Part shown: positions 36,880 through 37,522 of the stretch, piece after piece
How positions within the stretch are numbered: the first letter of the stretch is position 1
Layout of the letters: every line of letters starts with the position of its first letter
DNA from: Thermoproteota archaeon
Lineage (GTDB): Archaea; Asgardarchaeota; Jordiarchaeia; Jordiarchaeales; Freyrarchaeaceae
NCBI GenBank assembly: GCA_029258835.1
Contig: JAPDJY010000053.1
Coordinates: forward strand, 14,006 to 78,005
DNA length: 64,000 nucleotides
Reading direction: 5' to 3'
Notes under the pieces: model-generated
The model's input: only the letters and a program-made list of their open reading frames with translations
What the model was told of the DNA's origin: nothing
The model's database searches: none
Translations under genes and position numbers: made by a program

Positions 36880-37522
36880 CTAGAGAGTAATGTTTAGATA
36901 CTGCATGATTTGAGGCGCCAGGAGTCCGAGAAGGCCTCCTGATTCAGCTTGCCATGAGAAGGTGAGGTAAGCTATCAGCGCTATGCATGCGCCACAGAGC
37001 ACAATGTTAACCGCATGGTTGTCGTAGCGCAGCTTAGCAAGGCGCAGGTCTCGCTCGTGATCCCATAGGAATGCTCTGAGACTTTCCTGCTTCCGGGGGA
37101 GGATGTAAGGCAGCGTCCTCACCCCGGTCGGATTTGCCCCCATCAAGGTTTAGGCTGTCCGCTAGCCAGTGTGAGAAGACTGCTGCGGCTGCGATAGCGA
37201 AGTATTGAGGGACGAAGTAGCCTATCAGGAGTGGCAGCCAGATAAGTGTTAGAATACTGTGGAGCAACCCTGACCTGTGCATTACCCTTTCTCTTTTCAG
37301 AAGCTGATCTAAGTCGGGTATGATTCCGAAGAAGCCGCCCGCGGCAAGTGCTGGGACGGCGCCTGATAGGGCAAGCTGAACCTGCCACGTGGAGCTGTAC
37401 CTTGAAAGATCCATCAGTGTTTGCAGCTGGGAGAGCAGTGAGCCTTTAAGCTCAGGCGATACGAAGGATATCACGAGAGCTGCTGCGGCTGCTCCCAATA
37501 TAATGTGCGTGTACTTCTGCAT
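36880..37522 (-). CDS. membrane metal-dependent hydrolase (YbcI/DUF457-like), interrupted by a 16-nt BHB intron; 208 aa spliced
   Basis: TH, PDLD, HR..LHS, SHWLADSLN-PTGV motif rebuilt across the junction from two overlapping ORFs. Confidence 0.85.
37134..37149 (-). other. BHB-type intron in mRNA (16 nt)
   Basis: central GCCU/GGGC, both bulges AA^A, inner CC-UUGAU-GG, exon pairing CGGA/UCCG. Confidence 0.78.

What the first reader, a model, noticed from the sequence alone, without database searches (positions are those of the whole stretch)
37134..37149. Minimal 16-nt BHB intron in a membrane metal-dependent hydrolase
Minus strand GCCU-AA^A-CC-UUGAU-GG-GGGC-AA^A-UCCG. Removal joins the two overlapping ORFs into SHWLADSLNPTGV, matching the H..D..xPxGV spacing of this family. 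A simple 1-nt slip in the G5 run would leave about 5 extra residues in the motif. The size is like the smallest tRNA introns.
Basis: partly seen in the sequence, partly recalled or inferred. Interest (0 to 1): 0.82.

Follow-up and report, generated by a model that had tools for sequence, protein, structure and literature searches.

The report
Length-variable tRNA-type mini-intron in hydrolase gene
A membrane hydrolase gene of an uncultured Asgard archaeon carries a newly gained 16-18 base insert shaped like a tRNA intron, and because most strains would have a broken gene unless it is cut out of the mRNA, it is most likely a spliced intron caught soon after it was gained.

Summary
On the minus strand a YdjM-family (PF04307) gene is split at 37149..37134 into two overlapping ORFs. 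Removing these 16 nt gives a 208-aa protein that lines up without gaps with every relative.

All relatives in two other genera, and remote ones down to 29% identity, lack the insert. In 13 assemblies of this species the G run inside the insert is G5, G6 or G7, so the insert is 16, 17 or 18 nt. Nine of the 13 are out of frame. It is the only frame-changing indel inside a gene body across 20.6 kb in five strains, and the gene is the least diverged in its neighbourhood.

The insert and its flanks form a relaxed bulge-helix-bulge: a 4-bp helix and two AAA bulges, with the 3' site facing two unpaired bases.

I confirmed two other conserved, length-variable mRNA introns of this type in the same window, 13-14 nt tRNA introns of the same geometry, two EndA paralogues and RtcB.

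Best reading, at about 0.75: a recently gained intron removed by EndA and RtcB. No RNA evidence exists. The main rival is an in-frame 6-aa insertion with a slippery G run.

Earlier notes of this scan reported similar introns elsewhere in this genome.

The parts
36880..37522 (-). Whole interrupted gene: YdjM-family (PF04307) membrane metal-dependent hydrolase, 208 aa after removal of the insert
   Evidence: ORFs; Pfam; spliced CDS of 627 nt; alignment to 207/208-aa homologues
37150..37522 (-). Exon 1 (ATG at 37522; ends ...AGCCTAA)
37134..37149 (-). Proposed intron, 16 nt in this strain (17 and 18 nt in other strains). Because AAA occurs at both ends, the boundaries can slide by up to 3 nt without changing the product
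   Evidence: The insert is absent from G001-G004 and genus g3 orthologues
36880..37133 (-). Exon 2 (starts ATCCGACC..., includes the stop codon)
37152..37155 (-). Central helix, 5' strand GCCU (exon 1). It pairs with GGGC at 37136-37139 (3 G-C and 1 U-G)
   Evidence: MFE; the pairing is kept in the G6 and G7 alleles
37136..37139 (-). Central helix, 3' strand GGGC (inside the intron)
37149..37151 (-). 5' bulge AAA, with the proposed cut after the second A (between 37150 and 37149)
   Evidence: tRNA introns of the same genome show the same cut rule
37133..37135 (-). 3' AAA, with the proposed cut after the second A (between 37134 and 37133). It faces the unpaired CA at 37156-37157, so it is a 2x3 internal loop and not a clean bulge
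37137..37141 (-). G run: G5 here and in L047, G6 in 7 other assemblies, G7 in 4. In the model the extra Gs lie in the intron's inner loop
37140..37148 (-). Inner mini-hairpin CC / UUGAU / GG (2 bp with a 5-nt loop)
   Evidence: Comparable to the 1-bp inner stems of the 13-14 nt tRNA-Val introns
37158..37161 (-). Outer helix, 5' strand CGGA. It pairs with UCCG at 37129-37132 and is extended by CUGG/CCGG and CUCAC/GUGAG
37129..37132 (-). Outer helix, 3' strand UCCG (exon 2)
25152..26078 (+). One of two tRNA-splicing endonuclease (EndA) paralogues of the genome (308 aa; PF02778 + PF01974). Candidate trans-acting enzyme subunit

Best explanation
The 16 nt at 37149..37134 (17 or 18 nt in other strains) is a bulge-helix-bulge-type mini-intron in the pre-mRNA of a YdjM-family membrane hydrolase of a Jordarchaeales (Asgard) archaeon. 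Exon 1 supplies one strand of a 4-bp helix (GCCU) and the intron supplies the other (GGGC). An AAA follows each strand. An outer exon-exon helix (CGGA/UCCG and beyond) holds the two ends together. The inferred mechanism is that the two-subunit tRNA-splicing endonuclease cuts after the second A of each AAA and RtcB joins AGCCUAA to AUCCGACC. That restores the invariant H-x3-D-x2-N-P-x-G-V motif and a 208-aa protein. The intron was gained after this species split from its nearest sequenced relatives. Because it is removed, the length of its inner loop (the G run) drifts freely. What is shown: the insert, its absence in relatives, the length polymorphism, the fold, the presence of the enzymes, and comparable introns in neighbouring genes. 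What is inferred: cleavage and ligation of this RNA.
For: 1. Precise excision. Removing the bases that the BHB rule defines gives a protein collinear, with no gap, with 10 homologues at 45-74% identity to ORF1 over the alignment and with remote relatives at 29-40% identity, none of which has any insertion at this motif.
2. Lineage-specific. Orthologues in G001-G004 and in four g3 genomes have uninterrupted 195-245-aa open frames. Their DNA reads ...TCATTTAACCCGAC... with no insert.
3. Length behaves as non-coding. Thirteen assemblies of the species carry G5 (2), G6 (7) or G7 (4). G6 and G7 strains differ by only 0.1-0.2%. Of 35 indel events in 20.6 kb across 5 strains, this is the only frame-changing one inside a gene body. 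The rest are intergenic, at gene ends or in frame.
4. The exons are under constraint. There is 1 synonymous difference in 627 nt between the G5 strain and the others (0.16%), against 0.7-1.3% in neighbouring genes and 1.3-5% in spacers.
5. The 15 nt of exon 1 next to the insert are the most diverged stretch of the gene against relatives: 9-10 of 15 differ, against 25% overall, and only 6 of 613 sliding windows reach this level. The changes (Phe>Leu, Ile>Ala, Ser TCA>AGC, Phe>Leu) create CGGA and GCCU, the pairing strands.
6. The helices and both AAA loops persist in the MFE folds of G5, G6 and G7.
7. Precedent in the same window, tested here. The FAD-oxidase gene has inserts of 36/24/27/22/29 nt at one site in five family-f1 genomes and none in six g3 genomes. 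An aconitase-family gene has 29-, 30- or 33-nt inserts at one site in nine genomes of two families, with a compensatory change in the central helix (TTGG/CTAA to TCGG/CCGA). Judged from the sequences, the 3' site of the FAD-oxidase intron also lies in an internal loop.
8. tRNA-Val introns of 14 and 13 nt in this genome have the same minimal form: CGCC AC^A ...GGTG AA^G.
9. The genome has two EndA paralogues and RtcB. Asgard EndA is reported as the broad-specificity (alpha-beta)2 type with the L1 loop (PMC5829648).
10. The assembly is not frameshift-prone. A pipeline that detects this case found no other G000-specific split gene against 400 kb of G001.
Against: There are no RNA data: splicing has not been observed. 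No spliced-junction sequence was found in JGI metagenome contigs, and the 90% protein cluster holds no 208-aa member. The motif is relaxed: the 3' AAA faces two unpaired bases and the inner helix is 2 bp. Fold-energy z-scores are ordinary for most windows. One allele (G7) is in frame and has no stop, so it does not strictly need splicing. A low-confidence model (pLDDT 62) places the site two residues after the end of a helix, where an insertion might be tolerated. No related species carries an intron at this site, so there is no covariation evidence for this particular intron. My genome-wide scan for BHB motifs combined with ORF fusion gave no enrichment, because gene boundaries confound it.
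Confidence: 0.75

Rival explanations
1. An ordinary in-frame 6-aa insertion (NLDGGA, the G7 allele) sits in a loop of the protein. Its G run slips during replication, so G6 and G5 strains carry null alleles, possibly as a phase-variable on/off switch. Nothing is spliced.
For: The G7 allele is in frame and has no stop (P0013, P0017). Homopolymer runs are known slippage sites, and other G and T runs also vary between these strains. The low-confidence model places the site just after a helix end.
Against: Nine of 13 assemblies would be null, in two different frames, yet the gene is the most conserved in its neighbourhood and has no other lesion. No relative, down to 29% identity, tolerates any insertion in this motif. 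This reading does not explain why the insert plus remodelled exon codons form a BHB whose cut sites delimit the insert exactly (about 1e-3 by chance). G5-G7 is short for a contingency tract (general knowledge).
Confidence: 0.13
2. The gene is a recently inactivated pseudogene. The insertion and the later G-run changes are simply decay.
For: Two overlapping ORFs in this strain. Most alleles are out of frame.
Against: Divergence in the gene is 0.16%, against 1.3-5% in neighbouring non-coding DNA. About 8 or more substitutions would be expected under neutrality and 1 synonymous one is seen. No stop codon or second indel occurs in any of 13 assemblies. Exon 2 stays closely similar to relatives in its own frame (alignment).
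Confidence: 0.05
3. Recoding or a split gene. Either ribosomal frameshifting or transcriptional slippage on the G run restores the frame, or the two ORFs are translated separately. In G6 the upstream TGA overlaps a GTG start (GTGA) and the two pieces would then assemble.
For: The GTGA overlap in G6 alleles and the 80-aa downstream ORFs called by annotators (P0014, P0016).
Against: The three alleles would need three different shifts. No slippery heptamer is present. Either route destroys or lengthens the invariant NPxGV motif.
Confidence: 0.04
4. A homopolymer sequencing or assembly error in this MAG. The true gene is in frame.
For: The break lies in a G run.
Against: G5 is reproduced in an independent JGI contig that is 99.94% identical (L047). 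G6 recurs in 7 assemblies made with different assemblers, one at 32x coverage. No other G000-specific split gene appeared in the 400-kb comparison.
Confidence: 0.02

Closest known systems
cbf5 pre-mRNA introns of Crenarchaeota (Desulfurococcales, Sulfolobales; Yokobori et al. 2009, PMC2738675)
   Same: A short intron with no ORF inside a protein-coding gene. It sits in a conserved or catalytic motif and is often flanked by a relaxed BHB cleavage motif attributed to a hetero-oligomeric EndA. The reported size range is 16-44 bp, so 16-18 nt matches the lower end. Some copies are in frame yet are still held to be spliced.
   Different: A different gene (YdjM-family hydrolase) and a different phylum (Asgard, Jordarchaeales). 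It is confined to one species rather than shared by orders. It is length-polymorphic within the species. Splicing of cbf5 was shown experimentally, whereas here it is inferred.
Non-canonical tRNA mini-introns of Asgard archaea (10.1101/2023.11.21.568159; 10.64898/2026.10.13.758758)
   Same: The same geometry as the 13-14 nt tRNA-Val introns of this genome: a 4-bp helix, A-rich 3-nt loops cut after the second base, and almost no inner stem. The preprint reports repeated, often terminal-branch gains with no identified route of arrival.
   Different: The host RNA is an mRNA, so there is no tRNA body to help recognition. The exon strands of the helices are codons, and the protein sequence appears to have changed to supply them.
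The FAD-oxidase and aconitase-family mRNA introns in the same window (12508-12543 and 33340-33368)
   Same: Inserts at a fixed codon whose length varies (22-36 nt; 29, 30 and 33 nt) while the exons stay conserved. The bulges are A-rich. Judged from the sequences, the 3' site of the FAD-oxidase intron is also in an internal loop.
   Different: Those introns are old: they are shared by one or two families, and the aconitase one shows a compensatory change. The YdjM intron is species-specific and has no interspecies covariation.
HAC1/XBP1 unconventional splicing (Ire1 plus RtcB/Trl1) in eukaryotes
   Same: A very short intron (26 nt in XBP1) is removed from an mRNA by an endonuclease and a tRNA ligase, and this shifts the reading frame (general knowledge; RtcB role in PMC8718801).
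   Different: It uses a different nuclease and a different recognition motif (twin stem-loops). It is regulated by stress. Nothing here indicates regulation.

Membership tests
Archaeal BHB intron (EndA/RtcB-spliced) | Central 4-bp helix between the two cleavage sites | tested here: met
   GCCU (37155-37152) pairs with GGGC (37139-37136): 3 G-C and 1 U-G. Present in the MFE folds of G5, G6 and G7
Archaeal BHB intron (EndA/RtcB-spliced) | Two 3-nt bulges on opposite strands, one directly 3' of each helix strand (canonical hBHBh') | tested here: not met
   The 5' AAA is a 3-nt bulge only if the 2-bp CC/GG stem forms. The 3' AAA faces the unpaired CA, giving a 2x3 internal loop. So it is a relaxed motif and not the canonical one. 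Relaxed motifs are accepted by (alpha-beta)2 EndA according to PMC5829648 and PMC2738675
Archaeal BHB intron (EndA/RtcB-spliced) | Cutting after the second bulge base at both sites yields the correct mature RNA | tested here: met
   It gives a 627-nt CDS and a 208-aa protein collinear with intron-less homologues. Chance of such a placement is about 1e-3
Archaeal BHB intron (EndA/RtcB-spliced) | Outer helix joining the two exons | tested here: met
   CGGA/UCCG, extended by CUGG/CCGG and CUCAC/GUGAG
Archaeal BHB intron (EndA/RtcB-spliced) | Splicing endonuclease and RtcB ligase encoded by the organism | tested here: met
   Two PF01974/PF02778 proteins of 190 and 308 aa. RtcB PF01139 at E = 1.6e-182
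Archaeal BHB intron (EndA/RtcB-spliced) | The intron is absent from the mature RNA | not testable with these tools
   No transcript data. No spliced junction in JGI metagenome contigs or in the protein cluster
Archaeal BHB intron (EndA/RtcB-spliced) | Structure maintained by compensatory change across species | tested here: inconclusive
   No other species has this intron. Within the species only the loop length varies. Remodelling of the flanking exon relative to intron-less relatives creates the pairing strands, but that is not covariation.
YdjM / PF04307 membrane metal-dependent hydrolase | Match to the Pfam model above the gathering score, with the conserved His/Asp and NPxGV motifs | tested here: met
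   ORF1 scores 42.5 bits against a cut-off of 29. H88, S89, H118 and the Gly of the NPxGV motif are invariant, and D70, D72 and D122 nearly so, in the family alignments
Phase-variable homopolymer (contingency) locus | Tract length differs between closely related strains and switches the frame | tested here: met
   G5/G6/G7 among strains that are 0.1-1% diverged
Phase-variable homopolymer (contingency) locus | The in-frame ('on') allele encodes a functional protein | tested here: inconclusive
   G7 adds 6 aa inside a motif with invariant spacing in all relatives. The structural model is too weak to judge (pLDDT 62)
Programmed ribosomal frameshift | A fixed shift at a slippery site with a conserved stimulator | tested here: not met
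   The three alleles would need +1, -1 (or +2) and 0 shifts respectively

The most novel reading that the evidence does not exclude
This is an intron gain caught in a living population: a BHB micro-intron that entered an Asgard protein-coding gene so recently that sister lineages still show the empty site. Its arrival went with rewriting of five adjacent codons (two otherwise conserved residues changed) to supply the pairing strands. Its loop length is still drifting (16/17/18 nt) between strains. If true, it offers a before-and-after pair for working out how endonuclease-type introns colonise mRNAs in the closest prokaryotic relatives of eukaryotes. It would also show that RNA-structure needs can override protein-sequence conservation.
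Probability: 0.5. Interest if true: 0.85.

Novelty: new member of a known kind. Interest (0 to 1): 0.7.

Why it matters
The Yokobori 2009 paper records cbf5 of Crenarchaeota as the only archaeal protein gene with confirmed endonuclease-type pre-mRNA splicing (PMC2738675). My searches of the held literature found no report of such introns in Asgard protein genes. The Asgard reports I found cover tRNA introns only.

A second, unrelated gene in Asgard archaea, together with the two conserved cases I confirmed in the same 64 kb, suggests that interrupted protein genes are a regular feature of this lineage. That has three consequences:
- **Annotation:** such genes are currently called as fragments or pseudogenes, here as 134-, 162- and 80-aa pieces.
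- **Metabolic reconstruction from MAGs:** pathways may look incomplete when the genes are merely interrupted.
- **Origin of split genes:** it bears on how split genes arose near the archaeal-eukaryotic boundary.

This particular intron is useful because it is young. The empty site, the filled site and three length alleles are all available, so both the gain mechanism and the substrate limits of the endonuclease can be tested directly.

Tried and rejected
1. **Genome-wide scan.** I scanned for BHB motifs whose excision fuses two open or coding frames. There was no enrichment (strict 250 observed against 225 expected; relaxed 378 against 360), because same-strand gene boundaries pass the fusion test. 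The scan was useful only for the motif density.
2. **Census of shared introns against 400 kb of G001** with a looser motif. It was too permissive: 28 mostly spurious pairs, and the known FAD-oxidase case was missed. I abandoned it.
3. **Search for a donor copy of the insert** elsewhere in the genome. Only chance 11-14-mers were found.
4. **Fold-energy z-scores as evidence**. They are not significant for short windows, so I did not use them.
5. **Looking for a spliced form.** There is no junction match in JGI metagenome contigs and no 208-aa member in the 90% cluster. This is uninformative, because transcript data for this organism may simply be absent.
6. **AlphaFold model of an intron-less homologue**. 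At pLDDT 62 it is too weak to say whether a 6-aa insertion would be tolerated.
7. **Tree of strains to polarise G-run changes.** SNP patterns among the contigs looked mutually incongruent in the partly truncated listing, which suggests recombination. I made no formal test and did not pursue the tree.
8. **aragorn-based automatic recovery of all tRNA intron boundaries**. The output was too noisy, and I use only three clear cases.
9. **Template-switch mutation** as the source of the clustered changes. I considered and set it aside, because such events make perfect contiguous inverted repeats, not a helix interrupted by two 3-nt loops.

Full report
**What is there.**
The finding lies in a minus-strand gene, 37522..36880. 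As it stands, the gene reads as two overlapping ORFs: 37522..37034 (162 aa) and, in the +1 frame, 37146..36880 (88 aa). The first ORF matches Pfam YdjM (PF04307, 42.5 bits against a cut-off of 29). Named homologues are annotated as metal-dependent hydrolases of Candidatus Jordarchaeales or Freyarchaeota, so the organism is an Asgard archaeon. On the mRNA strand it reads CGGA-CA-GCCU-AAA-CC-UUGAU-GG-GGGC-AAA-UCCG, with the proposed intron at 37149..37134. Removing it gives a 627-nt CDS and a 208-aa protein.

**Homologues.**
- Ten homologues from other genera are 194-208 aa long and read ...SHWFIDS(F/L)NP(T/S)GV..., with no gap relative to the spliced product.
- Whole-genome searches found uninterrupted frames in G001-G004 (79-81% identity) and in four g3 genomes (about 50%).
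- Their DNA shows the empty site ...TCATTTAACCCGAC....
- An exhaustive profile-free search of 1.8 billion representatives found only seven relatives. Aligned, even those at 29-40% identity keep the same spacing between the invariant His and the invariant Gly.
- So the insert is specific to this species and sits inside the best-conserved motif of the protein.

**The unexpected part: the G run is polymorphic.**
The 90%-identity protein cluster around this gene holds fragments of 80, 126, 134 and 162 aa and full-length forms of 214 aa. I fetched their contigs and read the site in 13 assemblies from different projects and assemblers:

| Allele | Insert length | Assemblies | Reading frame |
|---|---|---|---|
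| G5 | 16 nt | this MAG, plus an independent JGI contig 99.94% identical to it | out of frame |
| G6 | 17 nt | seven, one at 32x coverage | out of frame the other way, ...NLDGGQIRPG* |
| G7 | 18 nt | four | in frame, NLDGGANPTGV |

- G6 and G7 strains differ by only 0.1-0.2% in flanking DNA. The G5 strain differs from them by about 1%.
- This rules out an assembly error.
- It also means that, read literally, nine of 13 assemblies carry a broken gene.

**Does the site behave as coding or non-coding DNA?**
- Across 20.6 kb aligned in five strains there are 35 indel events.
- Apart from one in-frame codon repeat and a few at the extreme ends of genes, all are intergenic.
- The G run is the only frame-changing indel inside a gene body.
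- The exons, meanwhile, are unusually conserved. There is one synonymous difference in 627 nt between the G5 strain and the rest (0.16%). Neighbouring genes show 0.7-1.3% and spacers 1.3-5%.
- No allele has a stop codon or a second indel.
- A neutral pseudogene should have collected about eight or more substitutions over the same divergence.
- The pattern is constrained exons around a freely varying insert, which is what an intron predicts.

**Structure.**
It persists in the G6 and G7 alleles, where the extra Gs go into the inner loop.
- It is a relaxed motif. The 3' AAA faces two unpaired bases and the inner stem is 2 bp.
- Energy z-scores are unremarkable except in the widest window, so I do not rest on them.
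- The relevant statistic is positional. My motif definition occurs at 2.5e-4 of all position-length pairs in the genome. The chance that one delimits a given homology-defined insertion is therefore about 1e-3.
- The 15 exon bases just upstream of the insert are the most diverged stretch of the gene relative to intron-less relatives. Nine or ten of 15 differ, against 25% overall, and only 6 of 613 sliding windows reach this level.
- Those changes include a TCA-to-AGC serine switch and replacements at two otherwise conserved residues. They create CGGA and GCCU, the two exon strands of the helices.

**Context, tested here rather than taken from earlier notes.**
I checked both against related genomes.
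- **FAD-oxidase gene.** It has inserts of 36, 24, 27, 22 and 29 nt at one codon in all five genomes of the family and none in six genomes of the sister family. Two of those lengths break the frame, although the exons are 86-94% identical.
- **Aconitase-family gene.** It has inserts of 29 nt (four genomes) and 33, 33, 33, 33 and 30 nt (five genomes) at one site. A more distant genome and a paralogue have none. The central helix shows a compensatory change, TTGG/CTAA to TCGG/CCGA.
- These are hard to explain except by removal from the RNA. Judged from the sequences, the 3' site of the FAD-oxidase intron also lies in an internal loop, so the relaxed form appears usable in this lineage.
- **tRNA introns.** The genome's tRNA-Val genes carry 14- and 13-nt introns of the same minimal build: a 4-bp helix with one G-U, AC^A and AA^G loops, and a 1-bp inner stem.
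- **Enzymes.** The genome encodes two EndA paralogues, one of them in this window, and RtcB. Asgard EndA is described as the broad-specificity (alpha-beta)2 type (PMC5829648).
- **Assembly quality.** A split-gene detector that flags this case found no other G000-specific split in 400 kb of orthologous G001 sequence. The assembly is therefore not frameshift-prone, and recent gains of this kind are rare.

**Weighing.**
- The intron reading explains every observation: exact excision, lineage-specific presence in an invariant motif, free length variation with conserved exons, remodelled pairing strands, and the local precedent.
- The main rival treats G7 as a tolerated 6-aa insertion and G5 and G6 as null or phase-variant alleles. 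It must accept that most sampled strains lack a gene that is otherwise the best conserved in its neighbourhood. It must also treat the BHB geometry and the exon remodelling as coincidence.
- Pseudogene, recoding and artefact readings fare worse.
- What is missing is any RNA evidence. I found no spliced junction in metagenome contigs or protein clusters. Because the intron is species-specific, there is no covariation for it.
- I put the intron reading at about 0.75.

**Comparison with what is known.**
- The closest precedent is the cbf5 pre-mRNA intron of Crenarchaeota. It is 16-44 bp, often has a relaxed motif, sits in the catalytic region and is sometimes in frame (PMC2738675).
- This case is a different gene in a different phylum, is confined to one species and is polymorphic in length.
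- Published work on Asgard introns that I could find covers tRNA genes only.
- I therefore class it as a new member of a known kind. Its extra value is that it looks like a very recent gain, with the empty site preserved in relatives.

Noticed in passing
window 12508-12543 (minus strand), gene 12931..11417: The FAD-linked oxidase gene is interrupted by a 36-nt BHB-type insert that contains a TAG. The same codon carries inserts of 24, 27, 22 and 29 nt in G001-G004 and none in six g3 genomes.
   Followed up: yes
window 33340-33368 (plus strand), gene about 33222..34510: An aconitase-family (LeuC/HacA-like) gene is interrupted after its first 39 codons by a 29-nt canonical hBHBh' insert. The same site holds 29-nt inserts in G001, G003 and G004 and 30-33-nt inserts in five g3 genomes, with a compensatory change in the central helix. 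It is absent in G011 and in a paralogue.
   Followed up: yes
window 25152-26078 (plus strand); also G000:C1 near 12233: There are two tRNA-splicing endonuclease paralogues. One is 308 aa, with about 130 extra N-terminal residues. The other is 190 aa. This is consistent with a two-subunit enzyme. RtcB lies at G000:C1:78966-80273.
   Followed up: partly
G000 tRNA genes, e.g. the tRNA-Val(GAC) gene that aragorn lists at c[69545,69632] and the tRNA-Val(TAC) gene at [61972,62060] (contig numbers not printed in the aragorn output): Most tRNA genes that aragorn finds are called with introns, many at non-canonical positions. They include 13- and 14-nt introns at 30/31 with almost no inner stem. aragorn finds no tRNA in the 64-kb window.
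   Followed up: partly
window about 27294: A second G6/G7 run polymorphism between strains. It lies at the 3' end of a ferredoxin-like ORF and the start of a CCG-domain gene. Called gene lengths differ between strains (166 against 83 aa).
   Followed up: no
window about 42787-43647 (cyclase, PF04199): Annotated product length varies between strains (286, 218 and 243 aa), and no indel in the gene explains it. The cause is probably start-codon choice or SNPs.
   Followed up: no
L010:1-50: This ENA contig begins with a Nextera transposase adapter sequence. That creates the artificial N-terminus (MYKRQ...) of the cluster representative P0008.
   Followed up: yes
window 37524-37841 (minus strand): A small HhH (PF14520) protein with an N-terminal hydrophobic segment lies immediately upstream of the YdjM gene, with 1 nt between the stop and the start. 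The pairing is conserved in all strains.
   Followed up: no
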